Shown here one piece after another: positions 3,934 through 43,632 of a DNA stretch of 59,548 nt (its first letter is position 1; every line of letters starts with the position of its first letter). The notes under the pieces were generated by a model. The model had not been told where the DNA came from. It did no database searches and saw nothing but the letters and a program-made list of their open reading frames with translations. The stretch spans positions 62,001 to 121,548 of IMG/VR virus record IMGVR_UViG_3300022851_000011; one strand, 5' to 3'. A program made the position numbers and the translations under genes. This DNA is from an uncultured virus (IMG/VR IMGVR_UViG_3300022851_000011). Its lineage: Duplodnaviria; Heunggongvirae; Uroviricota; Caudoviricetes.

Positions 3934-4170
3934 TTATGTCGATACCCCATCCCATTTCCAAAACGGGAAAGAGTTATTCGAGGCGGGTCTACCTAAAGAA
4001 CACCCCTCATCTTCGGTGCGAGTAGGATGAAAGCAGGGTCCATCTGGTTCAGAATACATATGATCTTTGTTATAGGTAGGATCGCCGTCATATATGCAGG
4101 TACTACAGTTCTTATTTTGTGGCATATGCAATGCTTCCCAAAACTTTTCTTTCTTAGTCTTGTTTTTCAA
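3934..4170 (-). CDS. KExFW/WEWDG small Cys-rich family member
   Basis: KEKFWEAL..P..NCSTC...WKWDG; TTG start assumed. Confidence 0.7.
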   Translation of the reverse strand: MKNKTKKEKFWEALHMPQNKNCSTCIYDGDPTYNKDHMYSEPDGPCFHPTRTEDEGCSLGRPASNNSFPFWKWDGVST

Positions 4171-4372
4171 TGGTAAAATCCTCCATAACTGGATTGACAA
4201 TGTGTTTAACAATCTCGTTAATATCATCATCTGTTTCAATGTAAAATACCTTACCGATGCGGGTGCTTTTTAGCATATCGAATCCCATACCGTGTAGGGC
4301 ATTGGTTACAGCCACGCCAGCATTGTCACGAATACCGTCACGTAATGTTGTCGTTATTTTATATCTCATCAA
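4154..4372 (-). CDS. purS: phosphoribosylformylglycinamidine synthase subunit PurS
   Basis: LRDGIRDNAG.AV..AL..MGF, RIGK, VNPVMEDF. Confidence 0.8.
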   Translation of the reverse strand: MMRYKITTTLRDGIRDNAGVAVTNALHGMGFDMLKSTRIGKVFYIETDDDINEIVKHIVNPVMEDFTIEKQD

Positions 4373-4427
4373 ATTCCCCTTTTAATGTTGCCCAAAAGAA
4401 CTTGTCACCTTCTATTTTTTTCATGTT

Positions 4428-4556
4428 CATTCCCTTATTCCATCCCATTCCCACATACATGGTTCGCATGTTGTAGTTATGCGTTGACCCATCTGTTTTT
4501 TACAATAAATCTGTGCGTTTGCATAAATCCTGCCAAAACTTTTCTTTATCGTCCAT
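4428..4556 (-). pseudogene. frameshifted KExFW/WEWDG family copy
   Basis: MDDKEKFWQDL...stop, with CEPCMWEWDGIRE in another frame. Confidence 0.6.
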
Positions 4557-4737
4557 AACAATGTTCGCCATTCCACTCCCAATACTCGTCACGCCCCCCA
4601 CTACATATTGTCATGCCCACTGGATTCATACAATCGCTTAGTAAACCCGATGAAGCGAAATGAATACAGTTGCGGCAACCTCGTCTATTCAACGGCGGCT
4701 TTGATAAATCCTGCCAAAACTTTTCCCTGTCGTTCAT
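4546..4737 (-). CDS. KExFW/WEWDG family member
   Basis: MNDREKFWQDL..PP...CRNC...YWEWNG. Confidence 0.75.
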   Translation of the reverse strand: MNDREKFWQDLSKPPLNRRGCRNCIHFASSGLLSDCMNPVGMTICSGGRDEYWEWNGEHCYGR

Positions 4738-5015
4738 TTCCCGTGGTATTGCCACATTACTGCATTGCATCTGGCATGAACCGCACCTTCGGTCATACCA
4801 GTATCATGATCATGCTGTAAGTGAACAGGATGCTTAAAGAAGTTCGGCGGGAATAACCGACGATTAACATCTGTATCCATAATCTCAGTGGTAGGATTAT
4901 CGGTAAGTGCGTTCTCACACCACCAACATTTTCCGTCTTGAATGCGAATGTATTCTTCACGGACTTCACGACGCTCGCGTGCACCGATTCTCGTATAGTT
5001 TATAGGTAGTTTCAT
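4734..5015 (-). CDS. HNH/endonuclease VII-like protein
   Basis: QDGKCWWC, HLQHDH.TG, VHARCN. Confidence 0.65.
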   Translation of the reverse strand: MKLPINYTRIGARERREVREEYIRIQDGKCWWCENALTDNPTTEIMDTDVNRRLFPPNFFKHPVHLQHDHDTGMTEGAVHARCNAVMWQYHGK

Positions 5016-5033
5016 TTAGTATTCTCCATAAAA

Positions 5034-5070
5034 AAAGCCCATACCAGTTTATATACTAGTATAGGGCTTT
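5034..5070 (-). terminator. intrinsic terminator
   Basis: AAAAGCCC...GGGCTTTT hairpin with T-run. Confidence 0.55.
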
Positions 5071-5090
5071 TGATGTGGTGTTGTCAAGAC

Positions 5091-7405: not shown

Positions 7406-7408
7406 CGA

Positions 7409-7621
7409 TTATTCATTATAGGTTTTGCCATCCCATTCCCATTGGTTATAAGAGGTGGTAGAGGGATGCTTGTAGGATGTGCATCTGGACAGTAGGCTTG
7501 TCCCGGCAATGTCGGGATGGGAGCATCCAATCCCACTCTCATATTTACATGTATTGCATCCATATTCATTAAATACAGGCTCAGTCAATGTATTCCAGAA
7601 CTCTTCTTTTTCTTTATTCAT
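7409..7621 (-). CDS. KExFW/WEWDG family member
   Basis: MNKEKEEFWNTLTEP...CNTC...QWEWDG. Confidence 0.78.
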   Translation of the reverse strand: MNKEKEEFWNTLTEPVFNEYGCNTCKYESGIGCSHPDIAGTSLLSRCTSYKHPSTTSYNQWEWDGKTYNE

Positions 7622-7841
7622 ACTCATAATCGTGATAGGTTTCACCATCCCACGCCCATAGATTATTGTTAGTCATGGATGGATGAATCCATGAATTGCA
7701 AACATCATACCGTATATTATCGGGGTGCCGACACTCCCCCTTCTTCGTGACATTTTCTTTATATTTGCAGGTTCCACATCCATAAGCCTTAAATACAGGA
7801 TCGGTCAATGTATTCCAGAACTCTTCTTTTTCGCTATTCAT
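7614..7841 (-). CDS. KExFW/WEWDG family member (tandem paralog)
   Basis: MNSEKEEFWNTLTDP...CGTC...LWAWDG. Confidence 0.78.
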   Translation of the reverse strand: MNSEKEEFWNTLTDPVFKAYGCGTCKYKENVTKKGECRHPDNIRYDVCNSWIHPSMTNNNLWAWDGETYHDYEYE

Positions 7842-7842
7842 A

Positions 7843-8133
7843 TTAATACTCATCATCAGGCATAGTTTTACCATCCCATTCCCATGCATTGTCTTTATGC
7901 ATTAGATCGTTCGGGGGCGTGGTTTGGCACACCATACAGGGTTTGTAATCGTACGTCTGGTCATGGTCCGCCCCCCATCCTTTAGGATTACCATGCTCGG
8001 CGTATTTACAAGAGGCGCAAGTGTGCCTGTGAAATATAGGTTGACTCAATGCTTGCCAGAATTCTTCTTTATTCATTCGTTTGGCTTTTACAGTGGGTTC
8101 TGAGAGGGCCTTGAAAAATTGTTGTTTGTTCAT
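7843..8133 (-). CDS. KExFW/WEWDG family member with duplicated N-terminal motif
   Basis: MNKQQFFKALSEP...MNKEEFWQALSQP...CASC...AWEWDG. Confidence 0.78.
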   Translation of the reverse strand: MNKQQFFKALSEPTVKAKRMNKEEFWQALSQPIFHRHTCASCKYAEHGNPKGWGADHDQTYDYKPCMVCQTTPPNDLMHKDNAWEWDGKTMPDDEY

Positions 8134-9389: not shown

Positions 9390-10415
9390 TTAGCTACGAT
9401 GTAAGTCAAGTGTGCAACAATGAATCCCTCCACCAAGTGTTCGTGCCATATCCATTGGCGTGTCAATAACCTCAATGCCGTGCGCTTCAAGTCGTTTTTT
9501 AATGTATGGTTGTCCTGATTCCATCAACACCAAACCCGGCTCAATAACCAATAAGTTCAATGCAATCCACTTAGACGCATACGGGTAGTCTTTGAAATAT
9601 TGTGCCACAACTTCTTCTTCGGTAATGTAAATCTTTTCCCAATCCTTAAAGACCTTCGGGCAGTTGCTTTCATTTACACGATTGGCATTAAGCATAACCA
9701 ATCCTTCTTTAAGCGGACAAATAGTGCTATCGATATGAGCATAACTATATAGGTTATCAAGAATATGAACGGTCTTATCAGGTAGCATTTGCTGTAACCA
9801 TTCGCCGCCACGATAGTTACCTGTCTCACTTACAAGGTATAGTAGATCATCATTCACCCTGCATACGTTTGCTGCGTCGAAGATAGGATAGTCTTCGGTA
9901 AGTATCATCTTGTTATTGTCGTGGTCAAGTTTGAAATCATCATCGAATAATGCTGGTTTAGGTGCACTGAACCATACTGCCCCATCCTTTATTGCATCTC
10001 GTTTAATGTGTTCGTATCCTTGGAACTCATACCAACGGCTTCTATACGCCATTGGTGTTTCAATGACACGGTTGCCGACTACTAGTAGAACGTCACGTGG
10101 ACAATAGCCATACATACCGTCGGTTTCCCAATAGTAGTTGTTATGTGTTTCACGGTAGTCAAGTTTCGCTGGGACTCGTGTTTTGATTCCATATTGCTCA
10201 AGACGAAGAACGATATCCATAAGGTTCTCGGTCGCCTTAGTTTTAACTTTCTTATCAAAGTTTCCTTGTGGCAACGATGTTTCTTTCCATTTAGTAGTGA
10301 TGGATTGCATACTGAATAAAGGGTCTTCGGTAGGGAAACGGGCAAAGTTGGATACACCAACCACCACATCATGTAACTTATCCCATTCGTTATTGCTATT
10401 TACTATCATCTTCAA
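9390..10415 (-). CDS. amidinotransferase (glycine/inosamine-phosphate amidinotransferase family)
   Basis: NEWD.L..VVVG, YCPRD, FDAAN, HIDST, GGGIHCCTLD. Confidence 0.92.
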   Translation of the reverse strand: MKMIVNSNNEWDKLHDVVVGVSNFARFPTEDPLFSMQSITTKWKETSLPQGNFDKKVKTKATENLMDIVLRLEQYGIKTRVPAKLDYRETHNNYYWETDGMYGYCPRDVLLVVGNRVIETPMAYRSRWYEFQGYEHIKRDAIKDGAVWFSAPKPALFDDDFKLDHDNNKMILTEDYPIFDAANVCRVNDDLLYLVSETGNYRGGEWLQQMLPDKTVHILDNLYSYAHIDSTICPLKEGLVMLNANRVNESNCPKVFKDWEKIYITEEEVVAQYFKDYPYASKWIALNLLVIEPGLVLMESGQPYIKKRLEAHGIEVIDTPMDMARTLGGGIHCCTLDLHRS

Positions 10416-10596
10416 TCTCGGTTACCAACAATCGCATCAGTTCTTCTTCTATATCTTTGCCCCACGCACTAATACTTCCATCCGAATATTCTACCTCTAC
10501 GTGATGTCCATCATCGTAATATGATACTATATATGGTTTTGGTTCTGGTGGGTCGGCGCAGAGTTCTTCCCAAAACAGTTCTTTATCTTTATTCAT
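10396..10596 (-). CDS. KExFW N-terminal motif protein lacking CxxC and WEW
   Basis: MNKDKELFWEEL..DPP. Confidence 0.6.
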   Translation of the reverse strand: MNKDKELFWEELCADPPEPKPYIVSYYDDGHHVEVEYSDGSISAWGKDIEEELMRLLVTEIEDDSK

Positions 10597-10828
10597 CTTT
10601 TCCATTCCATTCCCAATTATCTTTATATAATGCTCGGGTGGCTCCACTGATTGGGTGTGAAATGCTAGCACAATCAGGGTCTAGCATACGACCATTTTCA
10701 GATTTGGTGTCACACACAACAGAGTAATTTCCCATACCCATATTCGCAAAATGATCAAGATGTTTACAGTTACGGCAGTTATGGTGTGTTGGTTCACGCA
10801 ATGCTTTCCAAAACTTTTCTTTATTCAT
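10589..10828 (-). CDS. KExFW/WEWDG family member
   Basis: MNKEKFWKALREP...CRNC...NWEWNG. Confidence 0.8.
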   Translation of the reverse strand: MNKEKFWKALREPTHHNCRNCKHLDHFANMGMGNYSVVCDTKSENGRMLDPDCASISHPISGATRALYKDNWEWNGKDE

Positions 10829-10829
10829 T

Positions 10830-11336
10830 TTAAGTCGCTTTGGTCCATCCTGTCACCTGTAATGTATATCGGGGTTCAATCCCGATGTTTGCGGCAGAAT
10901 GCTTATTATCGTTCTGCCAAACGACATAATCACCAGCTTTCCAGTTAAGACATTCGCCATCAATCTCAAAGATGTGTCCCGGCTTTCGATCCTCTAAGAA
11001 GATCACTGCACGATTAATATTCTCGTTGTGCCATAACTCGTAAGCCTGTTTATATCGTGCGTACAGGTCTGCGTGTTCTGGTAGAATAACGCCTGTTTCC
11101 ATCACATAATAACTTGTTCCAACATCATTCCAATGACGGAAATGTTCTTTGACTAGGTTATTCCAAGACGGTTGTTCCTTGCGGAAATCAGCCATCTTGC
11201 CTACATAGTATTTGTGGGTATAACCGTCTTTCTTCCATTGATTCAACAACTCAGGGTCATTGAATGCTTCTCGTTGATAATCTAAAAACTTATATTCATC
11301 GTCCCAAAACGGTGTCATCTTTTCTATTTTATGCAT
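10830..11336 (-). CDS. cupin/2OG-Fe(II) aspartyl/asparaginyl beta-hydroxylase-like protein
   Basis: LPEHAD, RAVIFLED, HSAANIG..PRYTLQVTG. Confidence 0.7.
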   Translation of the reverse strand: MHKIEKMTPFWDDEYKFLDYQREAFNDPELLNQWKKDGYTHKYYVGKMADFRKEQPSWNNLVKEHFRHWNDVGTSYYVMETGVILPEHADLYARYKQAYELWHNENINRAVIFLEDRKPGHIFEIDGECLNWKAGDYVVWQNDNKHSAANIGIEPRYTLQVTGWTKAT

Positions 11337-11565
11337 TTTTTCTATCCCATTCCCATAATCTTTTTGCTTTATACGTGTTAAAAGGTCTGCTACTTGTGTT
11401 TGCAACCGATGAGTAAATATAATCATTATGAACATCGCACATTAATCCAGCCCGCAATGAACACGATGTGGTGCTAACCGTAGCTTCGTTAAAGAAACAG
11501 TTATCACACGTTCTTTTTGTTGGCTGGGTTAGCGCATTCCAAAACTCTTGTTTACTGTCATCCAT
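11329..11565 (-). CDS. KExFW/WEWDG family member
   Basis: KQEFWNALTQP...CDNC...LWEWD. Confidence 0.8.
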   Translation of the reverse strand: MDDSKQEFWNALTQPTKRTCDNCFFNEATVSTTSCSLRAGLMCDVHNDYIYSSVANTSSRPFNTYKAKRLWEWDRKNA

Positions 11566-12172
11566 TGATAGTTATATCTCGCAAATCAGGATAGTTGAAT
11601 GGCGGCGGGGATTTGATATCACCATCATCCAACATCCGCATACCTTTTATTGCCCATTCAGGACGCATATGATAATGATAACCAATATCAAATACATTTT
11701 GGTCAGCCCATTTATCATAGGTATGAATGTTACGACCATCATATGCCATACGTTTTAAGGTAGCGTAGTCGTCAGCGTTATCTAATAGTATAGCACCACC
11801 TGCGCCGATTTGCAATGGTTTTCCGTGCCCAAAACTAAGGCATTGCTTTTCACGTGGACGGAACATTCCTTCTTCAAATAATCTTGCCGAATCGTATACA
11901 CTTGGAATGACATCGTATTCGCCATCTTCTTCCCAATCAATATCCTTAAAGAAATAGTTCTTGTTAATCTTTTTTAACATCATCGGAATACTTAGATATG
12001 TTCGGGCTGGCAATGTGACATCCCACATTGTATATTCGTGCCGTAAGCACAGTTCCAATGCGTGTGTGCAACAATCTGTTAACACCACATAAGGTGCGCC
12101 AGTATATTCCGACAGCATATCCTCAAAATCTAATAATGCGTCAAACGGGTTTTCATAATCTTCTATAATCAT
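11558..12172 (-). CDS. DegT/DnrJ/StrS PLP-dependent aminotransferase (short phage form)
   Basis: DCCTHALELCL, YDSA, SFGHGKPL.IG.GGAIL. Confidence 0.85.
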   Translation of the reverse strand: MIIEDYENPFDALLDFEDMLSEYTGAPYVVLTDCCTHALELCLRHEYTMWDVTLPARTYLSIPMMLKKINKNYFFKDIDWEEDGEYDVIPSVYDSARLFEEGMFRPREKQCLSFGHGKPLQIGAGGAILLDNADDYATLKRMAYDGRNIHTYDKWADQNVFDIGYHYHMRPEWAIKGMRMLDDGDIKSPPPFNYPDLRDITING

Positions 12173-12393
12173 TCTCTTTCACCATCCCATTCCCATTGTT
12201 GTTTATAATGAATAAGTTCATATGTAGTGTGGTCCAATACATCTCTGTTATAGCATAGCCATTTGCCATTTCCCCAAAACGGGCTTTCATCAATACTGCA
12301 TTTAACAGTAACATAATCGCCTTTAAACTGACAGTTCATACAAGACTTTTCAGTTGGACCAGCCAATAACTTCCAGAACTTTTCCTTACTCAT
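12169..12393 (-). CDS. KExFW/WEWDG family member
   Basis: MSKEKFWKLL.GP...CMNC...QWEWDG. Confidence 0.8.
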   Translation of the reverse strand: MSKEKFWKLLAGPTEKSCMNCQFKGDYVTVKCSIDESPFWGNGKWLCYNRDVLDHTTYELIHYKQQWEWDGERE

Positions 12394-13132
12394 TTAGAAT
12401 CTCCATAAAATGTGGTTCCATAATGTCAGCAGCGGCAACATGTGCTTCTTCAAGAGGGTGTCCGTATTGCCCCTTTTCAAAGTTGTGTGCATTAGCCCAA
12501 TATACAAATCCTGTGTCGCCATAATCGTGCGGAAACCATTTAAACTTATTCCAGTCAATGCTGTCGTATAGACTTCTACAAATAGATGGACCATTATTCT
12601 TTAATGTATTCCAATGTTTGAAATCGTTCCATCGTTCAGCACAAGAAAACATATACGGGATGTTTCTATTATTCAAATATTCCTGTAGCAATAGGATTTG
12701 TGTAAGTGTGTTGTCAAGTTCATTCATACTATCAAGCATACGATATTCAACTTCTGCCCACTTGTCGGTGCCGAAGTTTTTGATGCGTTGAACATACTCA
12801 TCGCCAAAGCACGATGCTACCGTTTTATCAGACAAGTTTAGGTGTGCGGGTGTTAGGGTATACCAAGGACTATTCTGCTCTTTAGTATCAAATGAACAAA
12901 TGTAATCATAGCGTGAAAGATATGACCATTGAACTATTACCGCAACATTGTCGTCTATCGTTGATACCCTATCAATAATGCGTTTGGCGATATATCTGTT
13001 ACCTGCGCCGGGATAGCCTTCGTTGATATACTCAAATCCACGGCGTTCGGCAATATTTCCAGTCCACGTATTATCAGTATTTTGTAACTCTGCGCCTTGT
13101 ATCAGGCTACATCCACCAGCTATTAGTTTCAT
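12386..13132 (-). CDS. SGNH-hydrolase-like phage protein
   Basis: GGCSL..G, N.G.PGAGN..I, IVQWS..R, GHP.EEAH. Confidence 0.65.
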   Translation of the reverse strand: MKLIAGGCSLIQGAELQNTDNTWTGNIAERRGFEYINEGYPGAGNRYIAKRIIDRVSTIDDNVAVIVQWSYLSRYDYICSFDTKEQNSPWYTLTPAHLNLSDKTVASCFGDEYVQRIKNFGTDKWAEVEYRMLDSMNELDNTLTQILLLQEYLNNRNIPYMFSCAERWNDFKHWNTLKNNGPSICRSLYDSIDWNKFKWFPHDYGDTGFVYWANAHNFEKGQYGHPLEEAHVAAADIMEPHFMEILNE

Positions 13133-13326
13133 TCGCCATTCCATTCCCATTTATCAACGCTATTGTCAAGATGCAATCCACGTGAACAATACTTGTTTTC
13201 TGGCCAATGCGCCATGTCCAAATCTTGAATAAAGCATTCAAGACCATTCTTCTTAATACAGTTCGAACATGTTCGTTGATCATTTGGCGGGATTGTCAAT
13301 GCTCGCCAAAACTCATCCTTATTCAT
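13129..13326 (-). CDS. KExFW/WEWDG family member
   Basis: MNKDEFWRALT.PP...CSNC...KWEWNG. Confidence 0.8.
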   Translation of the reverse strand: MNKDEFWRALTIPPNDQRTCSNCIKKNGLECFIQDLDMAHWPENKYCSRGLHLDNSVDKWEWNGE

Positions 13327-20867: not shown

Positions 20868-21041
20868 TCATTTCATTTTCGTGTAAGTCTTTTTATTCCA
20901 TACCCATTCATTTAATCGGGTAGGTGAACAAGTTACGGGTTTTGGCATAAATCGTGATATACACGCACGTGAATAAAAGCAGTTATTACAACTCTTTTCA
21001 AATGATAGTCGCTTCCAAAACAGTTCTTTATCTTTATTCAT
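20868..21041 (-). CDS. KExFW/WEWDG family member
   Basis: MNKDKELFWKRL...CNNC...EWVWN. Confidence 0.75.
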   Translation of the reverse strand: MNKDKELFWKRLSFEKSCNNCFYSRACISRFMPKPVTCSPTRLNEWVWNKKTYTKMK

Positions 21042-21526
21042 TTGGTTACGATTTCCCATAGTTTTTGCCAGTCGCTGCTGTTATATCCCGGTTTATCATA
21101 CTGTTGGTTATAGCCACCCCAAAAGTTTAGTCTACCCTTCTCGTTAACCTTACTAAACGTTCCAGCAACAAACCCTCCACCAATCAGCGCAAGATATTGT
21201 GTACTATCTGTTTTGATATCAGGATGGCTATCTTTTCCACCAGCAAGCATATCTACTTCAACAAGTGTTACATTCTTTCTAGTCCACGTGTCATAATCAC
21301 GCCGCCGTTGTTCAGCCCGCTGTTCATTTTCAATATTAATACGATCAATGTATGACGGAAGGTTAGGAAACCGTTTTATAATACTGTTAAAAGTATGATG
21401 ATGTTCGGCTTCCCGTAGATTAGAATACCCAAACCATTTTTCAAGTTCAAGTCCGAACTCTTCGGTATTCCAATAATCACGGCGTATCGGTGCTTGCAAT
21501 GCTTCCCAAAACTTTTCTTTATTCAT
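21038..21526 (-). CDS. KExFW N-terminal motif fused to unrelated domain
   Basis: MNKEKFWEALQAP then ~150 aa without CxxC. Confidence 0.7.
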   Translation of the reverse strand: MNKEKFWEALQAPIRRDYWNTEEFGLELEKWFGYSNLREAEHHHTFNSIIKRFPNLPSYIDRINIENEQRAEQRRRDYDTWTRKNVTLVEVDMLAGGKDSHPDIKTDSTQYLALIGGGFVAGTFSKVNEKGRLNFWGGYNQQYDKPGYNSSDWQKLWEIVTK

Positions 21527-31432: not shown

Positions 31433-31774
31433 TTAATCATCATCGCCATTCCATTCCCAATAGTTTTCAAATGGTATTGTGCCGGGTGGCTTCTTGCTTG
31501 GGAATGTTTTCACCGTTTCTTCCCATGCAGCTAACTGATATTCAATATATTCCTCTACACTAGATATTATATTATTTTTATCGTTGGTTAACACAGTTTC
31601 TGTTGGATGCAATACGCATCGGTGTGGCGCTGTGCAGGATTCAGATATCACGCATCCATAATAACCCGTGCTTATGCCATTCTCGGCAAGTGGCGGGACG
31701 GCACAGTTCACACAATGCCTATCCAAATCATGTGGCATTCGCAACGCATTCCAAAAATTATCTTTTTCACTCAA
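31433..31774 (-). CDS. KExFW/WEWDG family member (long)
   Basis: KDNFWNALRMP...CVNC...YWEWNG. Confidence 0.75.
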   Translation of the reverse strand: MSEKDNFWNALRMPHDLDRHCVNCAVPPLAENGISTGYYGCVISESCTAPHRCVLHPTETVLTNDKNNIISSVEEYIEYQLAAWEETVKTFPSKKPPGTIPFENYWEWNGDDD

Positions 31775-36530: not shown

Positions 36531-36549
36531 TATAATGTATTTATCTTAC

Positions 36550-36730
36550 CCATAGTTCTTACCATCCCATTCCCATTGCGATTTTTTTCCATAAAATCCA
36601 ACACAGGCGTAGACTTGGTTTGGTCGCTTACATACTGAGTAAATCCCCCCATTTATTCTTTTATTATACTTACAGTTATCACAACCCCTTTGTGTTGGTT
36701 GTGTGCATCCCAAAATTCCTGCTTACTCAT
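36550..36730 (-). pseudogene. frameshifted KExFW/WEWDG family copy
   Basis: MSKQEFWDA then QPTQRGCDNC...SQWEWDGK in another frame. Confidence 0.62.
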
Positions 36731-36915
36731 TTTGGTTTCCAATAACTACCAGACGAAGCACCAACAGGCTTTTTACTATCTTTAGCATCTTGGACACAAT
36801 ATATACAATTAAGCCAACTCTGCGTGGTATTACGTGTGTAATATAAACAGTTATTACAATCACGGTCAGATAATGGCACCGACCGCAAATCATTCCAAAA
36901 TTCCTGCTTACTCAT
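36727..36915 (-). CDS. KExFW family member
   Basis: MSKQEFWNDL..VP...CNNC...YW. Confidence 0.72.
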   Translation of the reverse strand: MSKQEFWNDLRSVPLSDRDCNNCLYYTRNTTQSWLNCIYCVQDAKDSKKPVGASSGSYWKPK

Positions 36916-37117
36916 CACGTGCCTTCCACATAGGTAAACTACGTCCTTCATAGTTAACATACGCCGGATCAAATATTCCTTCATCGTCCTGACCAATAGC
37001 TTTAAGTATAGGACGAAATATAGTTTCATCGTCAGTGTCGTCATAATCAATTAACCAAATATTAGCACCATGCGCTATTAACCATTCAGGGGCTTCAGCC
37101 TTGTGCTTCAGAACCAT
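36908..37117 (-). CDS. hypothetical protein
   Basis: ORF track. Confidence 0.5.
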   Translation of the reverse strand: MVLKHKAEAPEWLIAHGANIWLIDYDDTDDETIFRPILKAIGQDDEGIFDPAYVNYEGRSLPMWKARDE

Positions 37118-37138: not shown

Positions 37139-37303
37139 TTATTCATCAGATATCCACTTACTGAAATTATCGCATGAGATACAATACTCACGACAATACT
37201 TGTTAGTTAATGTAGACATACCATACGAATGTATAACAGCACAGTTTTTACACTCACGTATAGGTGACTTCAATGCTTTCCAAAATTCTTCTTTGTCATT
37301 CAT
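37139..37303 (-). CDS. KExFW family member (not in ORF track)
   Basis: MNDKEEFWKALKSP..ECKNC...CISC...KW, 54 aa. Confidence 0.68.
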   Translation of the reverse strand: MNDKEEFWKALKSPIRECKNCAVIHSYGMSTLTNKYCREYCISCDNFSKWISDE

Positions 37304-37900: not shown

Positions 37901-38230
37901 TCATGATTTCATCTTCCACCAAAACTGTTCTCTCGGATCAGTCAATACATCATACACAGTAACTTCTTTACCATGTAAATACCAAGACTTGTTGCCATTA
38001 GCAAACTCAATAGCTGGTCCATCTTCCCTATGTCGATTGTCATGATTATACCAAAACTTGTCGCCATTAGCAAACTCAATAGCAGGACCATCTTCCCTAT
38101 GACGTTCGCCATTAATATACCATACCGTGTCGCCATTAGCAAACTCAATAGCTGGTCCGTCTTCCCTATGATATTCACCATTCAAAAACCAAAACTTGTT
38201 GCCAGCATCATCAGTCTTACATTCAATCAT
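37901..38230 (-). CDS. HRxDGPA-repeat (MORN-like) protein
   Basis: three HREDGPAIEFANG repeats; ends DVLTDPREQFWW. Confidence 0.8.
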   Translation of the reverse strand: MIECKTDDAGNKFWFLNGEYHREDGPAIEFANGDTVWYINGERHREDGPAIEFANGDKFWYNHDNRHREDGPAIEFANGNKSWYLHGKEVTVYDVLTDPREQFWWKMKS

Positions 38231-38453
38231 TCTCCCGACGCTCCCATTTAGGTAAACTGTAACCAGTATAACTAACATACGCAGAATCATAATCAACATC
38301 GCTATAAACATACATACAAGTCGTAATGTCATTGCGGAGAGATATAGGCTCAATACAAAACTTACCATTAAACCAACGACAGTTATCACAGGAACGCTCA
38401 ATAACAGGCATAGTAGTCAATGACTTCCAAAACTCTTCCTTATCATCAGTCAT
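38223..38453 (-). CDS. KExFW/WEWDG family member
   Basis: KEEFWKSL..MP...CDNC...KWE. Confidence 0.75.
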   Translation of the reverse strand: MTDDKEEFWKSLTTMPVIERSCDNCRWFNGKFCIEPISLRNDITTCMYVYSDVDYDSAYVSYTGYSLPKWERREND

Positions 38454-38955
38454 ACGTCAATACCCAATTGCTTCCTTCCCAGATAATACATCATATTCTT
38501 TATCATGTAAATACCAGTCATTGATGCCATTAACAATCAATAGCATAAGCCATTCAAATACCAAGCCTTATTGCCATATGAATCTGTCACACATACAACA
38601 TCATCATTCATGATTCCATCTTCCATAGTAACACGTTCAATAGATGGCCCGTCAGTTCTATGACCATTGTAATTAGTATAACGTCCGTTTAGTTCTCTAA
38701 ATAATTTAAAAAAGGCTTTCATTACGTCACGCCATTCCATTCCTAATACGCAAAACGATCAATTCAACGTGCATCAACCACGCCAACTGTACGATTAGTA
38801 GGACATTTCAGATTATGCCAAACCATCCCATTCCCAGTTGTCTGGATACAGAAATGATGAATAACCCTGATTGTTCGCATTTACGACAATATAAGTAGTC
38901 CGAACCGACAGTTAAAGCAACCTTTTTTATTAGGTTCACTTAATCTTTATTCCAT
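38450..38955 (-). pseudogene. decayed HRxDGPA-repeat and KExFW/WEW fragments
   Basis: HRTDGP/VTMED fragments, SEPNKKGCFNC and YPDNWEWDG in broken frames. Confidence 0.5.
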
Positions 38956-38962: not shown

Positions 38963-39208
38963 TCAATGTTTATTATTCCATTGCCATTTAGGCAGGATAA
39001 CATTCGATGTGTCATTATTACTCCTGATGTGCCTATTCATTGTACACGCTTCACAAATATCACCAATATGGTCGTAATCCTCTGAAGTGCATTCCGAACC
39101 ATCTTCATTCAGTTTAACTGATTTTATATCATATCGCCATTTACAGTTTTTACATGATTTCTCAGACGGTTCACGTAACGTTTTCCAAAACTTTTCTTTA
39201 TCCGTCAT
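38963..39208 (-). CDS. KExFW/WEWDG family member
   Basis: MTDKEKFWKTLREP..SCKNC...KWQWN. Confidence 0.78.
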   Translation of the reverse strand: MTDKEKFWKTLREPSEKSCKNCKWRYDIKSVKLNEDGSECTSEDYDHIGDICEACTMNRHIRSNNDTSNVILPKWQWNNKH

Positions 39209-39359
39209 TTCCATCCCATTCCCAAAACACTTCACCATACTCCCTCATACTTGCCGACGAAGTGCACGATTTGATTTTGCAATACACTGATTGATTGTAT
39301 CCTCGACTGTTATTAGCACAGTTATGACTTAATGACTTCCAAAACTTTTCTTTATTCAT
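39205..39359 (-). pseudogene. deleted/frameshifted KExFW/WEWDG copy
   Basis: MNKEKFWKSL... and FWEWDGN end. Confidence 0.55.
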
Positions 39360-39457: not shown

Positions 39458-39517
39458 TCATTTGCCATTCCATTCCCAGTTGTCAACTGGTTCACGTAAC
39501 TTATTCCAAAATACCAT
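39458..39517 (-). other. 'empty' KExFW/WEW unit (ends only)
   Basis: reads MVFWNKLREPVDNWEWNGK*; both ends identical to the adjacent copy at 39523-39684. Confidence 0.7.
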
Positions 39518-39522
39518 CTTCT

Positions 39523-39700
39523 TTATTCACATTTGCCATTCCATTCCCAGTTATCATCTGGATAAACAGGGTTATTCATCATTTTAGAATCTTTTTCATA
39601 CATACTTTTTTGTATGGTTCTCTCATACCGACAATTGAAACACCCTTTTTTGATAGGTTCACGTAACTTATTCCAAAATACCATGTTCTTTGTCAGTCAT
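39523..39700 (-). pseudogene. KExFW/WEWDG copy with 5' frameshift
   Basis: MTDKEH then +1 frame FWNKLREPIKKGCFNC...DDNWEWNGK. Confidence 0.6.
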
Positions 39701-40683: not shown

Positions 40684-41015
40684 GTTTTCATCTTCCACCA
40701 GAACAGTTCTTTTGGATCGGTGATTACGTCTTCCATAGTAACACGTTCGCCATTCAAATACCAATACTTGTTGCCATTAGCAAACTCAATGGCAGGTCCA
40801 TCTGTTCTATGACGTTTGCCATTCTTGAACCATTGTTTGTCGCCATTTGTAAATTCAATAGCAGGGCCATCTGTTCGATGATATTCACCATTCAAGTACC
40901 AAGCTTTGGTGCCATTTGATTCTTCAATAGCAGGTCCATCTGTTCTATGAAGTTTATCATTAAAGTACCAAGCTTTGGTGCCATTTGCATCGGTATGCAT
41001 TCCATTTTTATTCAT
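40680..41015 (-). CDS. HRxDGPA-repeat (MORN-like) protein
   Basis: 3 repeats; ends DPKELFWWKMKT. Confidence 0.8.
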   Translation of the reverse strand: MNKNGMHTDANGTKAWYFNDKLHRTDGPAIEESNGTKAWYLNGEYHRTDGPAIEFTNGDKQWFKNGKRHRTDGPAIEFANGNKYWYLNGERVTMEDVITDPKELFWWKMKT

Positions 41016-41410
41016 GATCTTAACTTCCACCAGAACAGTTCTTTTGGATCGGTGATTACGTCTTCCATAGTAACACGTTCGCCATTCAACCGCCATTCGG
41101 TGTTGTACGTGCAAATGACAGCAGGTCCATCTGTTCTATGACGTTTGCCATATTGATACCAATACATGTTGCCATTTACATTTTCGACAGCAGGTCCATC
41201 TTCTCTATGACGTTTGCCATGTAGATACCAATACATGTTGCCATATGATTCGATTGCTGGTCCATCTGTTCTATGACGTAAGCCATGTAGATACCAAGAT
41301 TTGCTACCATTTGCATATTCAACAGCAGGTCCATCTTCTCTGTGAAGTTTATCATTCGTATACCAACGTTTGGTGCCATCTTCATAAGTATGACATATCG
41401 GTTCAGTCAT
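41012..41410 (-). CDS. HRxDGPA-repeat (MORN-like) protein
   Basis: 4 repeats; ends DPKELFWW. Confidence 0.8.
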   Translation of the reverse strand: MTEPICHTYEDGTKRWYTNDKLHREDGPAVEYANGSKSWYLHGLRHRTDGPAIESYGNMYWYLHGKRHREDGPAVENVNGNMYWYQYGKRHRTDGPAVICTYNTEWRLNGERVTMEDVITDPKELFWWKLRS

Positions 41411-41808
41411 GTTTTCATCTTCCACCAGAACAGTTCTTTTGGATCGGTGATTACGTCTTCCATAGTAACACGTTCGCCATTCAACCGCCATTCGGTGTCA
41501 TTTGCACGTACAACGGCAGGTCCATCTGTTCTATGTAGTTTATCATTCAAATACCATTCTTTGGTGCCATTTGTATATTCAATGGCGGGTCCGTCATCCC
41601 TATGAACTTCGCCATTCTTAAACCACCACTTGCTACCATTTGATTCTTCAATGGCTGGTCCGTCTTCCCTATGCGATTCACCATTGAATAACCAATACTT
41701 GTCGCCATTTGCATATTCAACAGCTGGTCCATCTGTTCTATGTAGTTTGCCATGTAGATACCAATACTTGTCGCCATTTGCATAAGTATGACATATCGGT
41801 TCAGTCAT
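41407..41808 (-). CDS. HRxDGPA-repeat (MORN-like) protein
   Basis: 4 repeats; ends DPKELFWWKMKT. Confidence 0.8.
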   Translation of the reverse strand: MTEPICHTYANGDKYWYLHGKLHRTDGPAVEYANGDKYWLFNGESHREDGPAIEESNGSKWWFKNGEVHRDDGPAIEYTNGTKEWYLNDKLHRTDGPAVVRANDTEWRLNGERVTMEDVITDPKELFWWKMKT

Positions 41809-41859
41809 GTTTTCATCTTCCACCAGAACAGTGCATTTTTACACTCAATATTATTGTAC

Positions 41860-42345
41860 GTTCATTATGCTATATGGTATACATTGTGTCAAGCAATCTT
41901 TTTACTTGACTATGGATGAAAACGTGTTATACTGGTAGTGATACGTTTGATTTGAAAACGATTCTGTAGGCATCAGTCCATTCTAACACATATATGTTTT
42001 ATGTCAAGGTAAAAGATTGCTTGACAGTATATGAAAACGTGTTATACTGGTAGTGATACGCCGTTTTTTTATTATTACTACGCAGGCATCAGTCCATTGT
42101 AACACACATAGAAACTTTGTCAAGCGTTTATTTCACGGTGATAGAATGATTATACGTCAGGCATCAAGCCCATTGTATCACATATATGGCAAGGGTTGAC
42201 AGCATTGAGTATATGTGTTATAATACCACTGTTTTTATTATTGGTGGGTCGGGTATCACCACCATTATAACATGTTTTTATGCGTTATTATTACTATTAA
42301 TCCATACGAAAGTCATTGTAACACATATACGCTTTATGTCAAGTG
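41860..42345. promoter_or_regulatory. array of repeated sigma70-like promoters on both strands
   Basis: TTGAC[TA]-N16-TATACT twice on + (41906, 42021); several TTGACA...TA[CG]AAT units on minus followed by GG[AG]CT(T)GATGCCT. Confidence 0.65.
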
Positions 42346-43364
42346 TTAATCAATGCGCTAGACGCAAGATTTTTATGTTTGGCTTCGATCATGATGTCAG
42401 CATATGGCAAGAATGATTCAGCCCATTGATTACACGCTGTATTCCACATCATATCACTGTGTGCACGTAGTTTATGTTTCTTGTATCCATCCTCAAGCAA
42501 CGTAGGCATATCGGGCATAACATCGGTAGGATGGTCAATAAGGATATCCTCACGTGATAAGCTATAGTGGATGGTAGGACGCACACCACGCCAACTGTCA
42601 ATGACACGTTTGAATCGGTCGTCGGTAGGCTGTATGTATTCGCCTTCACGGCACCAGTGATGATGTATGTCAAGGACAAGTGCTAGGTCATTAGCAAGGT
42701 CAAGTGAACTGTCAATACCCCACGCATTCTCATCATTCTCGATAGTGATACAGTTACGTGCTTCTGTAGACAAGCGTGGTAGAATGGCATCGATGCCATC
42801 GGGACCGTTGCGACCAGAGATATGCACGTTAATTTTGAAGTCCATGAAGTTTTCGCCATAACCCATCATACGTGCAATGTCAGCATGATATTCAAACTCA
42901 CGAATAGAGTTTTCTACAATATCGGGGTTGTCACTGGCAAGCACGGTAAACTGACCGGGATGCATTGATAGTCGCACATCATTATCACGTGCAAGGTCGC
43001 CAGCCTGTTTGAGTCGTGATGAAACGTGATGTTTTACATCATTATTATAGAAGTATTTCCAATCAGGATGGGTATACATTGGTAGAACGTCACTGCCGAT
43101 GCGCAACATACGCTGATTAGGCGGCAAGCTGGCTACATATTTGATAAGATTGATAACTGATTCACAGTTAAACTTGGCAAGTTCATATAATCGCTGTTCG
43201 GCTATATCAATGCATGATTGTGAAGCAAGCCAACGAGCAGTAGTGGTCTTGCCATTGAACGGTCGCTGAACGTCTTCCAGCAACTTCTTGGTGAGCGATT
43301 GGTCGGGATGCATATACTTACATGCAAAGCCGACACGCTGTATTGATTGGTCAAAATAATTCAT
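42339..43364 (-). CDS. uvsE: UV damage endonuclease UvsE/UvdE
   Basis: GFACK, LRIGS, RLSMHPGQF.VL.S, INVH, IENDE, LD.HHH, AHSD, MIEAK.KNLA. Confidence 0.93.
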   Translation of the reverse strand: MNYFDQSIQRVGFACKYMHPDQSLTKKLLEDVQRPFNGKTTTARWLASQSCIDIAEQRLYELAKFNCESVINLIKYVASLPPNQRMLRIGSDVLPMYTHPDWKYFYNNDVKHHVSSRLKQAGDLARDNDVRLSMHPGQFTVLASDNPDIVENSIREFEYHADIARMMGYGENFMDFKINVHISGRNGPDGIDAILPRLSTEARNCITIENDENAWGIDSSLDLANDLALVLDIHHHWCREGEYIQPTDDRFKRVIDSWRGVRPTIHYSLSREDILIDHPTDVMPDMPTLLEDGYKKHKLRAHSDMMWNTACNQWAESFLPYADIMIEAKHKNLASSALINT

Positions 43365-43401
43365 AATAAGATTATACGCAAAACAACAATATTGTCAAGT
43401 G

Positions 43402-43632
43402 TTATTCTACGAATCGTTTATATCTCCAAAGGCGTTTTTCATCACTGTCTGCTGCCCAGCACCGCCGTTTCTTTCGAACTCCTGCTGTCGGGTGGTTACA
43501 GTTATCCCTAGCATTTGTATAGCGTATATTGGGATTATTATGAAATGCGAAATGCTTACAGTTAAGACAGTTTTTTCTTATGTCGGGTGGCATACGTAAA
43601 CTATCCCAAAACGATTGTTTATCGTCATTCAT
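43402..43632 (-). CDS. KExFW family member
   Basis: KQSFWDSLRMPP...CLNC...LW. Confidence 0.72.
   Translation of the reverse strand: MNDDKQSFWDSLRMPPDIRKNCLNCKHFAFHNNPNIRYTNARDNCNHPTAGVRKKRRCWAADSDEKRLWRYKRFVE

What the first reader, a model, noticed from the sequence alone, without database searches (positions are those of the whole stretch)
3934..43632. About 30-copy family of small cassette-like genes with conserved ends (KExFW...CxxC...WEW[DN]G) and hypervariable middles
Seen: about 20 intact ORFs, mostly 54-113 aa, plus roughly 8 decayed copies, all on the minus strand. They begin M-x(1-4)-K-E-[EKQ]-F-W-x-x-L-x-x-P, usually carry CxxC plus two more Cys, have unrelated middles and mostly end W-E-W-[DN]-G (DNA TGGGAATGG[GA]ATGG). 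Nearly all overlap the flanking start or stop codons (ATGA or 8-nt overlaps). Two members keep only the N-terminal motif in front of unrelated sequence (10396, 21038). I do not recognise the family. Inference: either a self-spreading mini-gene that inserts at gene junctions without polar effects, or a diversified repertoire of small zinc-binding effectors (e.g. anti-defence or receptor variation) shuffled by recombination at the conserved ends.
Basis: partly seen in the sequence, partly recalled or inferred. Interest (0 to 1): 0.88.

Follow-up and report, generated by a model that had tools for sequence, protein, structure and literature searches.

The report
Expanded small cysteine-rich phage protein family
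A large uncultured T4-like phage carries more than forty diverged copies of an undescribed small four-cysteine protein, whose conserved ends probably form the core of a metal-bound scaffold and also serve as recombination points that add and remove copies.

Summary
The 3' DNA motif occurs 21 times against 0.06 expected, and 26 of 1,703 reading frames match a family profile at E<=1e-3. All of these lie on the minus strand.

It is a real protein family, because synonymous sites vary inside the motifs and orthologues in a related phage give dN/dS 0.10-0.34. Conserved positions are K, F, W, L, P, C-x-N-C, C, C and W-x-W; the rest is near maximal entropy. Of 135 full-length representatives, 105 have exactly four Cys.

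No match was found in Pfam, NCBIfam, PHROGs, PDB sequences, GenBank phages or prokaryote genomes. An exhaustive search found 207 metagenomic clusters.

The same phage's 230-kb record has 42 copies. A collinear relative has one copy where the window has about 19-20. Near-identical strains differ by exactly one copy, with the junction inside identical 5' ends. No paralogue pair exceeds 57% identity, so there is no sign of recent self-spread.

Best reading: a metal-bound mini-scaffold repertoire that grows and shrinks by recombination at its conserved ends. The function is inferred, not shown: binding host proteins. A link to radical SAM enzymes (RiPP precursors) and a capsid-targeting role are weak rivals.

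The parts
3934..4170 (-). Full copy, 78 aa, TTG start, ends W-K-W-D-G. Same slot as L091:14381-14614 (44% identity).
   Evidence: (P0004)
4427..4582 (-). Decayed copy. The 3' motif lies at 4440-4453 and a 23-aa N-motif fragment at 4500-4571. L091 has an intact copy at this slot.
4546..4737 (-). Full copy, 63 aa. Orthologue in L091 at 83% identity, dN/dS 0.11.
7409..7618 (-). Full copy, 70 aa, last of a three-copy tandem array.
   Evidence: (P0003)
7614..7841 (-). Full copy, 75 aa (W-A-W-D-G). 51% identical to the copy at 7409, one of the two closest paralogue pairs.
7843..8133 (-). Full copy (77 aa from 8076), preceded in frame by a second, degenerate N-motif.
10396..10671 (-). Chimera with the N-motif only, followed by unrelated sequence. 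Has an orthologue in L091 (46% identity).
10589..10828 (-). Full copy, 79 aa. Orthologue in L091 at 74% identity, dN/dS 0.10. A sigma-70-like site (10 of 12) lies just upstream.
11329..11565 (-). Full copy, 78 aa (W-E-W-D-R). Orthologue in L095 at 49% identity.
12169..12393 (-). Full copy, 74 aa. Orthologue in L091 at 55% identity, dN/dS 0.34.
13129..13326 (-). Full copy, 65 aa, with ATGA overlaps on both sides. The L091 copy at this slot shares only the motifs.
20868..21059 (-). Copy of 63 aa with a degenerate C-terminus (W-V-W-N-K).
21038..21541 (-). Chimera of about 162-167 aa with the N-motif only. Its 5' 31 nt are 97% identical to those of the copy at 10828.
21523..21693 (-). Full copy, 56 aa. 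57% identical to the copy at 22252.
22028..22270 (-). Full copy, 75-80 aa.
22252..22467 (-). Full copy, 68-71 aa.
22448..22651 (-). Full copy, 67 aa, first of the array. A sigma-70-like site (10 of 12, with TG) lies at 22686-22658.
   Evidence: (P0005)
23289..23482 (-). Remnants: an isolated 3' motif at 23289-23302 and a 17-aa N-motif fragment at 23429-23482.
23479..23685 (-). Copy of 68 aa with the N-motif and CxxC; the C-terminal motif is lost.
31433..31774 (-). Long copy, 113 aa, TTG start. A copy also occupies this region in relative L191 (6062-6361).
36546..36713 (-). Copy of 55 aa that lacks the N-motif.
36727..36984 (-). Copy with the N-motif and CxxC; the C-terminal motif is lost.
37139..37303 (-). 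Copy of 54 aa; the C-terminal motif is lost.
38223..38453 (-). Copy of 76 aa with a degenerate C-terminus.
38732..38946 (-). Fragments: a 3' motif interrupted by a stop (38732-38745), a C-terminal piece (38813-38911) and a CxxC piece (38881-38946).
38963..39214 (-). Full copy, 81-83 aa (W-Q-W-N-N). Its start lies inside the W-E-W-D-G codons of the upstream copy.
39198..39359 (-). Copy of 53 aa with both end motifs; CxxC is lost.
39458..39684 (-). A 53-aa copy with an internal deletion (39523-39684) and a 19-aa remnant of N-motif fused to C-motif (39458-39517).
43402..43632 (-). Copy of 76 aa with the N-motif and CxxC and a degenerate C-terminus. Outermost member.

Best explanation
These are genes for a previously undescribed, virus-restricted family of small (55-115 aa) stand-alone proteins.

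Structure (inferred). Only about a dozen positions are conserved, and I read them as the fold-determining core:
- an N-terminal helix (K-E-x-F-W-x-x-L-x-x-P)
- a C-x-N-C knuckle 10-14 residues after it
- two further Cys
- a C-terminal W-E-W-[DN]-G strand that pairs with the knuckle

The four Cys most likely hold one metal ion, probably Zn2+. The loops between them are free to vary and give each paralogue its own surface.

Evolution (shown). The phage, an uncultured T4-like myovirus of roughly 350 kb from salt-lake metagenomes, has expanded the family to more than 40 diverged copies. They are co-oriented and tightly packed with neighbouring genes in its accessory, hyperplastic regions. In tandem arrays the start codon of one copy can lie inside the W-E-W-D-G codons of the previous one. 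Each junction is then a conserved block of about 45 nt. Homologous or unequal recombination between these short conserved ends:
- adds and deletes whole copies
- makes N-motif chimeras
- together with internal deletions and frameshifts, produces a birth-and-death repertoire

Function (inferred, not shown). The copies form a set of specific binders or inhibitors of host proteins, for host takeover or counter-defence.
For: Real and protein-coding.
- The motif count is 21 against 0.06 expected.
- 26 frames match at E<=1e-3, all on one strand.
- Gly, Phe, Lys and Glu codons vary synonymously inside the motifs.
- Orthologous copies in L091/L095 have dN/dS 0.10-0.34 and dN 0.09-0.41, in the range of backbone genes (dN 0.08-0.34); dS is saturated.

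Scaffold.
- Of 135 full-length representatives, 105 have exactly 4 Cys (the other 30 have 5-8) and 134 have CxxC.
- The gap from N-motif to Cys1 is fixed at 10-14 residues, while the loops range from 2 to 54.
- Column entropy is below 1 bit at K4, F7, W8, L11, P14, C19, N21, C22, C34, C44, W61 and W63, and about 4 bits elsewhere, in 159 non-redundant sequences.
- Two AlphaFold2 models give pLDDT 86-90 for residues 1-20 and 79-84 for the C-terminus, with helix 3-11.
- In model 1 the only two bridge residues are 23 (second Cys of CxxC) and 62 (second Trp). Model 2 has isolated bridges at the equivalent residues 21 and 74.

Expansion and turnover.
- The 230-kb record of the same phage has 42 frames matching the profile (41).
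- L191 is collinear with window 40390-19949. It has 1 copy where the window has about 19-20, and three array-bearing junctions hold no copy there.
- L091 is collinear with 15785-2835. It shares orthologous single copies, but its arrays differ: 5 against 3 copies, and 6 against 0.
- L085 differs from L084 and L097 (about 99% identical) by a 197-nt indel of exactly one copy. The junction lies in an identical 29-30-nt 5' end.
- 16 of 80 copies have the previous copy's W-E-W-D-G readable in their +1 frame just upstream.
- N-motif-only chimeras share 27-31-nt near-identical 5' patches with true members.

Breadth.
- 207 clusters match at E<=1e-3 among 1.84 billion representative proteins.
- 114 of the 146 small proteins listed are not in any locus I hold.
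Against: Metal binding is inferred from the Cys pattern only. The predicted models are of middling quality (mean pLDDT 66-70, middles 49-60), and I could not inspect coordinates.

No structural neighbour was found: 0 of 48,161 chains at Z>=2 for either model, and no Foldseek match at E<=0.001 (PDB for model 1, BFVD for model 2).

Nothing addresses function, expression time or targets, and no RNA run was listed.

Only one clean whole-copy indel at the conserved ends was seen. The other strain differences are internal deletions of 47 and 176 nt and frameshifts.

Many decayed copies, and 8 nonsynonymous against 2 synonymous strain-level differences in 1,554 nt (a small sample), could also mean that individual copies are nearly dispensable.

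Ten copies sit among five radical SAM genes, which this reading treats as coincidence.
Confidence: 0.55

Rival explanations
1. RiPP precursor library. The N-motif is a leader recognised by the phage's N-terminal-twitch radical SAM enzymes. These enzymes crosslink the Cys and/or the C-terminal Trp motif to give dozens of modified peptides.
For: - Ten of the 16 copies outside the window part of G001 lie at 138.7-152.1 kb. They are interleaved with, or just upstream of, five tandem NF033640 radical SAM genes scoring 261-392 bits against a cut-off of 170. A sixth such gene is in the window at 56339-57562.
- The layout of a conserved end plus a variable body in many copies resembles multi-precursor RiPP systems (recalled).
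- Cys and Trp are typical radical SAM targets (recalled).
Against: - There were 0 family hits in 76 other viral loci (1,303,403 bp) around NF033640 homologues, although these enzymes form arrays there too: 1-8 matching frames per locus, and 66 of 76 loci with two or more.
- Small ORFs next to those enzymes are not enriched in Cys. Nine of 85 have at least 4 Cys (1 with CxxC), against 112 of 972 (45 with CxxC) further away.
- 26 of 42 copies lie about 100 kb from the enzyme array.
- The whole length, not only a leader, is conserved between orthologues.
- CxxC plus two Cys with variable spacing is a typical structural metal site.
Confidence: 0.08
2. Capsid-targeted (injected) internal proteins. 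The N-motif acts like the T-even capsid-targeting sequence, which loads diverse defence-countering proteins into the prohead.
For: - The phage is T4-like: Gp23, portal Gp20, prohead protease S77 and a T4 baseplate protein are all present.
- The N-motif also occurs alone in front of unrelated bodies, and one such chimera is conserved between phages.
Against: - The residue before the invariant Pro is Glu in only 52 of 128 sequences. As I recall, T4 protease sites need Glu at that position, and a following Pro is unfavourable.
- The C-terminal motif and the Cys are just as conserved as the N-motif, which a pure targeting tag does not explain.
- The copies lie among accessory genes rather than head genes. 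TATAAATA (the T4 late-promoter consensus, recalled) is not enriched (8 against 6.95 expected), and none lies directly upstream of a copy.
Confidence: 0.07
3. Selfish mobile mini-gene, or a DNA-level repeat (a recombination or regulatory cassette) whose translation is incidental.
For: - Copies occupy many different gene junctions, several of which hold no copy in relative L191.
- The ends are conserved in DNA over 17-50 nt.
- One exact single-copy indel was seen.
Against: - No near-identical copies exist; the closest pairs are 51% and 57% identical in protein.
- No mobility enzyme and no terminal inverted repeats were noticed.
- Synonymous variation inside the motifs and dN/dS of 0.10-0.34 show selection on the protein.
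- Single copies keep their syntenic slots between phages.
- Promoter-like sites are not clearly enriched (82 against 68.7, sd 8.8).
Confidence: 0.04
4. Small Fe-S (HiPIP-like) or other redox carriers that serve the phage's many radical SAM enzymes.
For: - The proteins have four Cys beginning with C-x2-C, a small size and many aromatic residues.
- One of 104 members gave a weak Pfam HPIP_like hit (E=0.026).
- The Atlas model's structure list includes a HiPIP cluster at TM 0.42, below that tool's bar.
- The phage has at least 7 radical SAM genes.
Against: - The hits are at chance level, and 0 of 104 members reach any Pfam cut-off.
- Forty different electron carriers with hypervariable surfaces and pI from 4.2 to 9.7 make little sense.
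- Other phages with arrays of the same enzymes lack the family.
Confidence: 0.05

Closest known systems
T-even phage internal proteins (IPI, IPII, IPIII and the variable IP locus) with a capsid-targeting sequence
   Same: Both occur in T4-type phages. Both are sets of small, highly diverse proteins that share a short conserved N-terminal segment (PMC3012670, passages read). In both, the N-segment is found in front of unrelated bodies.
   Different: Here the C-terminus and four Cys are also conserved. The copy number is more than 40 rather than a few. The Glu expected at a protease site is present in only 52 of 128 sequences. There is no sequence similarity and no evidence of packaging.
Multi-precursor RiPP systems (for example prochlorosin-type lanthipeptides or radical SAM sactipeptides; recalled)
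   Same: Both have dozens of small Cys-containing ORFs per genome with a conserved end and variable remainder, some next to radical SAM genes.
   Different: No co-occurrence with the enzyme was found elsewhere (0 of 76 loci). Both ends are conserved. The proteins are longer and orthologues are conserved over the whole length. No protease or exporter was noted.
Zinc-ribbon and zinc-knuckle mini-proteins of phages (for example Lar/Ral-type restriction alleviation proteins; recalled)
   Same: They are similar in size (50-110 aa), have a CxxC-containing Cys4 pattern, and sit in accessory regions.
   Different: No profile match was found: 0 of 104 members reach a Pfam cut-off, and the Atlas score to a Ral cluster was only 0.79. 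There is one CxxC plus two single Cys rather than two knuckles. The Trp-rich termini have no counterpart I know of.
Modular shuffling of small early genes in T4-type hyperplastic regions (promoter/stem-loop cassettes; recalled, not read here)
   Same: Small genes are gained, lost and exchanged between related T4-type genomes by recombination at short conserved flanks.
   Different: Here the recombining flanks are the coding ends of one protein family, not intergenic regulatory elements. Promoter- and terminator-like sites are not clearly enriched.
Expanded host-interaction gene families of large viruses (ankyrin, F-box and BTB families of poxviruses and giant viruses; recalled)
   Same: Both show lineage-specific expansion to tens of diverged paralogues, tandem arrays, pseudogenes and rapid copy-number change.
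   Different: This is a bacteriophage. The protein is tiny, Cys4-based and of no known fold, and there is no link to a known host pathway.

Membership tests
Any curated protein family (Pfam-A, NCBIfam, PHROGs) | A profile match at or above the curated cut-off, or a consistent sub-threshold match across members | tested here: not met
   Pfam: 0 of 12 window proteins and 0 of 104 members reach a cut-off, and the 19 weak families were each hit by a single member. NCBIfam: 0 of 18. PHROGs: among 16 window proteins, none of the 13 true copies or 2 chimeras reached E<=0.001 (only the MORN-like control matched), and among 104 members 3 families were each hit once at E about 0.007.
T4-type internal proteins with a capsid-targeting sequence | A short conserved N-terminal targeting segment shared by otherwise unrelated proteins | tested here: met
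   The N-motif columns have low entropy. N-motif-only chimeras occur at 10396 and 21038, and also in G001 and L091.
T4-type internal proteins with a capsid-targeting sequence | A prohead-protease cleavage site (Glu at P1; recalled) at the end of the targeting segment | tested here: not met
   Glu precedes the invariant Pro in only 52 of 128 sequences. Met, Gln, Gly, Thr and others fill the rest.
T4-type internal proteins with a capsid-targeting sequence | Presence in the virion and injection with the DNA | not testable with these tools
   The phage is uncultured and no proteome is available.
Radical SAM-dependent RiPP precursors | Consistent genomic co-occurrence of precursor and maturase | tested here: not met
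   The two are adjacent in G001 (10 copies among five NF033640 genes). But there were 0 family hits in 76 other loci with NF033640 homologues, and no Cys-rich ORF enrichment beside them.
Radical SAM-dependent RiPP precursors | Enzyme-precursor recognition and post-translational modification | not testable with these tools
Structural Cys4 metal-binding mini-domain (generic zinc finger or ribbon class) | Four invariant ligand residues including a CxxC knuckle, with few other conserved positions | tested here: met
   105 of 135 sequences have exactly 4 Cys and 134 of 135 have CxxC. All four Cys columns have entropy of 0.5 bit or less.
Structural Cys4 metal-binding mini-domain (generic zinc finger or ribbon class) | Ligands converge on one site in the fold, and the metal is present | tested here: inconclusive
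   The AlphaFold2 models have mean pLDDT 66-70. Only secondary structure was returned, so Cys geometry could not be inspected.
Autonomous or non-autonomous mobile element | Near-identical dispersed copies, an encoded or borrowed mobility function, and defined termini or target duplications | tested here: not met
   The closest paralogues are 51-57% identical in protein, and DNA matches between copies are 17-91 nt only. The units hold a single 55-115-aa ORF.
HiPIP / small Fe-S proteins | A match to HiPIP profiles or fold | tested here: not met
   One of 104 members hit PF18524 at E=0.026. The Atlas structure row had TM 0.42, below its bar. No PDB fold match was found.

The most novel reading that the evidence does not exclude
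The conserved N-terminal helix is a shared docking tag for one phage machine, and the family is a library of adaptors. The candidate machine is the phage's own ClpX/ClpP protease set, which sits in the same genome together with a phage tmRNA.

On this reading each variable, metal-bound body captures a different host protein and delivers it for destruction or sequestration. That would be a phage counterpart of the expanded F-box and ankyrin adaptor families of large eukaryotic viruses. Copies would be gained and lost by recombination as hosts change.

Nothing here tests this. It rests on three observations:
- the N-motif works as a separable module on unrelated bodies
- ClpX, ClpP, a ClpA/ClpB-type (Clp/Hsp100) ATPase and a tmRNA are present
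- the surfaces are hypervariable
Probability: 0.08. Interest if true: 0.9.

Novelty: new variant of a known kind. Interest (0 to 1): 0.6.

Why it matters
With 42 matching frames in 230 kb, this would be among the largest paralogous families I know of in a bacteriophage (a comparison from recall, not tested). It has no entry in Pfam, NCBIfam or PHROGs and no solved or confidently predicted fold.

If the copies are specific binders on a minimal metal-bound scaffold, they form a natural library of host-directed inhibitors or adaptors. They would also be a compact scaffold of possible use in protein engineering.

The locus shows, at single-copy resolution, how short conserved coding ends let a phage expand, prune and recombine a gene repertoire. 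That bears on how hyperplastic regions of T4-type genomes evolve.

If instead the radical SAM link is real, this would be a phage-borne peptide natural-product library.

Tried and rejected
Searches that found nothing
- megablast of window 20000-32000 against 50,697 GenBank phage records: no match.
- tblastn of three members against the same collection: no match at E<=0.05 or 0.001.
- Scan of one genome for each of 185,579 prokaryote species with the N-motif pattern: 92 pattern hits, none confirmed.
- IMG/VR and JGI metagenome scans with the N-motif pattern returned few loci: 9 and 12, half of them the same phage.
- The search for homologous proteins with A1 gave only 8 proteins. The search among longer proteins gave none, so no fused forms were found; the tool itself calls this weak evidence.
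- PDB sequence search: best E=0.05.
- The 79 loci around homologues of the neighbouring DUF6267 gene: only the 3 loci of the same phage have copies. The relatives at 52-58% identity share almost no gene order, so they say nothing about junctions.
- Literature: 'WEWDG' found only an unrelated paper. Searches on cyanophage plus cysteine-rich small proteins, and on radical SAM plus cyanophage plus twitch, found nothing relevant; only the listings were seen.
- The search of earlier findings: nothing on record.
- The listing of cluster members: 10 clusters, none carrying an informative name.

Structure and complex prediction
- Fold searches of model 1 (PDB by Foldseek; VIA-align wide) and model 2 (VIA-align wide; BFVD) found no usable match.
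- ESM Atlas: the nearest clusters are unnamed viral ones. Its own model has pLDDT 0.43. The Tad8, HiPIP and Ral rows are below the tool's bar.
- Mutual-information contact analysis on 159 sequences gave only noise among gap-rich columns.
- Complex prediction (radical SAM enzyme plus a member) was not available.

Sequencing runs
- 16 salt-lake DNA runs hold the stretch; no RNA holder was listed.
- Contigs of four runs were laid on 3900-23800. The joints fall at the family's end motifs but have sides of only 21-38 letters, one reaching 73. I read them as cross-matches of conserved ends from other copies or phages, not as evidence of rearrangement.

Regulatory signals
- TATAAATA is not enriched.
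- Sigma-70-like and terminator-like sites are not clearly above shuffles.

Strain-level differences
- 8 nonsynonymous against 2 synonymous in the copies. The sample is too small, and the control frames were not curated.

Full report

Yes. The 3' DNA motif TGGGAATGGRATGG, allowing one mismatch, occurs 21 times. All hits are on the minus strand between 3947 and 39549. Dinucleotide-preserving shuffles give 0.06 on average and never more than 1.

I built a profile from 11 ORFs that carry both end motifs and searched all 1,703 stop-to-stop frames of at least 20 aa.
- 26 frames match at E<=1e-3 and 30 at E<0.1, every one on the minus strand.
- The best plus-strand frame has E=3.2.
- The genome search with my 18-sequence alignment A1 gave 29 matches in the 121,548-bp record, 27 of them inside the window.

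My catalogue is given under 'parts'.

The claim that copies overlap their neighbours is largely right. Of 26 copies, 15 overlap the upstream gene by 4-22 nt and 3 abut it; 14 overlap the downstream gene.

**2. Protein or DNA repeat?**

It is a protein.
- Inside the conserved motifs, the third positions of the Gly, Phe, Lys and Glu codons vary freely.
- Copies that have orthologues in a related phage (loci L091 and L095) give Nei-Gojobori dN/dS of 0.10, 0.11, 0.15 and 0.34.
- Their dN of 0.09-0.41 is in the range of the flanking backbone genes (0.08-0.34). dS is saturated, so the ratios are rough.
- Two orthologue pairs are 74% and 83% identical over the whole length, middles included.

So the middles are hypervariable between paralogues, not between orthologues. 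Each copy keeps its own sequence.

**3. What kind of protein?**

An exhaustive HMMER search of 1.84 billion representative proteins found 207 at E<=1e-3. Of the 150 listed:
- 146 are 130 aa or shorter. All 146 matched the A1 profile again, 135 of them over its full length.
- 4 are long repeat proteins that match only through a short C-terminal-like stretch. I regard these as spurious.

Among the 135 full-length matches:
- 105 have exactly four Cys (25 have five, 4 have six, 1 has eight), and 134 have CxxC.
- The distance from the N-motif Trp to the first Cys is 10-14 residues.
- The three following loops range over 2-31, 2-32 and 2-54 residues.
- pI runs from 4.2 to 9.7.

In 159 non-redundant sequences, column entropy is below 1 bit only at K4, F7, W8, L11, P14, C19, N21, C22, C34, C44, W61 and W63. 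It is about 4 bits through the middle.

This is the signature of a very small fold held together by a metal site and an aromatic cluster, with free loops.

AlphaFold2 with 104- and 116-sequence alignments gave mean pLDDT 69.8 and 66.5.
- The first 20 residues are confident (86-90; helix 3-11), as is the C-terminus (79-84). The middles are poor (49-60).
These are the second Cys of CxxC and the second Trp of W-E-W.
- The second model has isolated bridge residues at the equivalent positions, 21 and 74.

I take this as support, at moderate confidence, that the two conserved ends form one structural core. I could not inspect coordinates, so the Cys4 geometry and the metal remain inference.

**4. 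Comparison with known families**

Nothing matches.
- Pfam: 0 of 104 members reach a cut-off, and each of 19 weak families is hit by a single member.
- NCBIfam: 0 of 18.
- PHROGs: none of the 15 window copies and chimeras tested reached E<=0.001, and no family recurred among 104 members.
- PDB sequences: best E=0.05.
- Fold searches: no chain of 48,161 at Z>=2 for either model; no Foldseek hit at E<=0.001 against PDB for model 1 or against BFVD for model 2.
- ESM Atlas neighbours are unnamed, mostly viral clusters.
- tblastn of three members against 50,697 GenBank phage records found nothing.
- A pattern scan of 185,579 prokaryote genomes found nothing.
- No longer fused forms were found.

Of the 146 small representatives, 114 are not encoded in any locus I hold, so the family is wider than the few phages seen here.

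**5. The genome**

The window is the last 59.5 kb of an IMG/VR record that CheckV rates 34% complete.

The same phage is present as a 230,059-bp record, G001, rated 65% complete. That implies roughly 350 kb in all.

G001 encodes T4-type Gp23, portal, prohead protease and a baseplate protein, so the phage is a T4-like myovirus. Its DUF6267 gene is 38-40% identical to genes of cyanophages, Pelagibacter phage HTVC008M and Methylophilales phages.

Runs holding the sequence are labelled salt-lake metagenomes.

The window itself carries accessory genes typical of such phages: PstS, Hsp20, ClpX, ribonucleotide reductase with inteins, UvdE and radical SAM enzymes.

With a profile built from the 135 sequences, G001 has 42 matching frames:
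- 26 in the part that equals the window
- 10 at 138.7-152.1 kb
- 6 scattered

**6. Turnover and the role of the conserved ends**

Three comparisons bear on this.

(i) L091 (16.8 kb) is collinear with window 15785-2835, with backbone genes 57-86% identical.
- Single copies at 10589, 4546, 12169 and 11329 have orthologues at the same slots.
- The copies at 3934 and 13129 face much more divergent copies (44%, and motifs only).
- The three-copy array at 7409-8133 faces five non-orthologous copies.
- L091 has six further copies where the window has none.

(ii) L191 is collinear with window 40390-19949, with backbone genes mostly 46-77% identical.
- It holds one copy, whereas the window has about 19-20 copies in that span.
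- The three junctions that carry arrays in the window are 716, 286 and 892 nt long in L191. They contain unrelated small ORFs and no remnant, even at E<=50.
- The whole 90.6-kb record of that relative has 2 matches.

(iii) Loci L083-L085 and L096-L100 are about 99% identical strains of a third phage.
- L085 has two adjacent copies that begin with the same 29-30 nt.
- L084 and L097 lack exactly one 197-nt unit. The junction lies inside that repeat, with the upstream flank of the first copy joined to the body of the second.
- Other differences among these strains are internal deletions (47 and 176 nt) and frameshifts.

Within the window, no paralogue pair exceeds 57% protein identity. DNA similarity between copies is confined to patches of 17-91 nt, most of them 17-50 nt and lying at the ends. 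Some of these patches are 97-100% identical, including patches shared by the N-motif-only chimeras and true members.

In 16 of 80 copies, the W-E-W-D-G of the preceding copy can be read in the +1 frame just upstream of the start. The ATG inside GAT-GG can itself serve as the next start, so tandem junctions are one composite conserved block.

Together this shows a birth-and-death family. Its coding ends act as recombination substrates, and it shows no sign of recent autonomous spread.

**7. The radical SAM question**

Five tandem genes at G001 140,011-148,142, and one in the window (56339-57562), match NCBIfam NF033640, a twitch-domain radical SAM protein. Scores are 222-392 bits against a cut-off of 170. 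Ten family copies are interleaved with or adjacent to the tandem five. This looks like a peptide-maturation cluster, so I tested it.
- In 76 other viral loci (1.30 Mb) centred on homologues of this enzyme, there is no family member. The enzyme forms arrays in those loci too.
- Small ORFs within 300 nt of those enzymes are not Cys-rich more often than distant ones: 9 of 85 against 112 of 972.

The association therefore does not generalise. I keep it as a rival at low probability. A direct enzyme-peptide prediction could not be run.

**8. The capsid-targeting analogy**

T-even internal proteins are described as highly diverse defence proteins that share only a capsid-targeting sequence (PMC3012670, passages read).

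In favour of the analogy:
- The N-motif here also heads unrelated bodies, and one such chimera is conserved between phages.

Against it:
- The Glu that I recall as required at the T4 protease site is present in only 52 of 128 sequences.
- It would be followed by Pro.
- The C-terminal motif and the Cys are equally conserved.
- No T4-late-type promoter lies directly upstream of a copy.

**9. Verdict**

- The 'self-spreading mini-gene' reading is not supported.
- The 'diversified small zinc-binding repertoire shuffled at the conserved ends' reading fits the evidence on structure and evolution.
- Metal binding and any function remain inference.

I commit to the scaffold-repertoire model at about 0.55 overall. 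Broken down:
- a real new protein family: about 0.95
- the ends as structural core around a Cys4 metal site: about 0.7
- recombination at the ends as the main driver of copy-number change: about 0.75
- host-protein binders or inhibitors: about 0.4

This is a new variant of a known kind: an expanded accessory gene family in a hyperplastic phage region. It is unusual for its copy number, its minimal conserved core and its overlapping-motif junctions.

Noticed in passing
window 47304-47765 (-): A GOLLD RNA (Rfam RF02032, 202 bits against a gathering score of 150). It contains a 74-nt tRNA with anticodon TCA at 47629-47702, which ARAGORN labels SeC. This is a possible UGA-reading tRNA inside the large RNA.
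   Followed up: partly
window 49517-49888 (-): A phage-encoded two-piece (permuted, alpha-type) tmRNA (RF04321 at 80 bits; RF01849 at 80 bits). It lies in the same genome as phage ClpX and ClpP.
   Followed up: no
window 6446-7405 (+): An SbmA/BacA-family peptide-uptake transporter gene (Pfam E=1e-110), on the opposite strand in the middle of the cysteine-rich gene cluster. It is absent from the syntenic site in L091. Homologues occur in only 3 of 50,697 GenBank phage records.
   Followed up: partly
window 56339-57562 (-); G001 140,011-148,142 (-): Six paralogues of the NF033640 twitch-domain radical SAM protein in one phage, five of them in tandem. Homologues in 76 other viral loci also form arrays, with 1-8 matching frames per locus. 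Their substrate is unknown.
   Followed up: partly
window 33712-33975, 40420-41838, 43869-44474 (-): A second multi-copy family: six proteins built of about 23-aa repeats (Y-W-Y-L-N-G...H-R-x-D-G-P-A, MORN-like to the eye; no Pfam MORN match). All end in D-P-K-E-x-F-W-W, which resembles the N-motif of the cysteine-rich family.
   Followed up: no
window 14712-15785, 57569-59546; G001 pieces L106 and L112: Intein splicing domains in UDP-glucose dehydrogenase and the ribonucleotide reductase large subunit, and also in the DNA polymerase B and portal protein of G001.
   Followed up: no
window 13841-14656 (-): An endonuclease-like gene (weak Phage_endo_I and DUF7487 matches) between two backbone genes that are adjacent in L091. 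It may be a homing endonuclease insertion.
   Followed up: no
window 28237-29493 (-); G001 80,466-84,320 and 55,532-56,590: The phage carries its own proteolysis set: ClpX with its zinc finger, a two-AAA-domain Clp/Hsp100-type ATPase (ClpA/ClpB-like), ClpP and an HtrA-like trypsin-PDZ protease. It also has a Tad6 (Thoeris inhibitor) homologue at G001 115,646-116,278.
   Followed up: no
window 53270-54370 (+): A radical SAM protein whose best (sub-threshold) NCBIfam match is prokaryotic viperin: 63 bits against a cut-off of 180.
   Followed up: no
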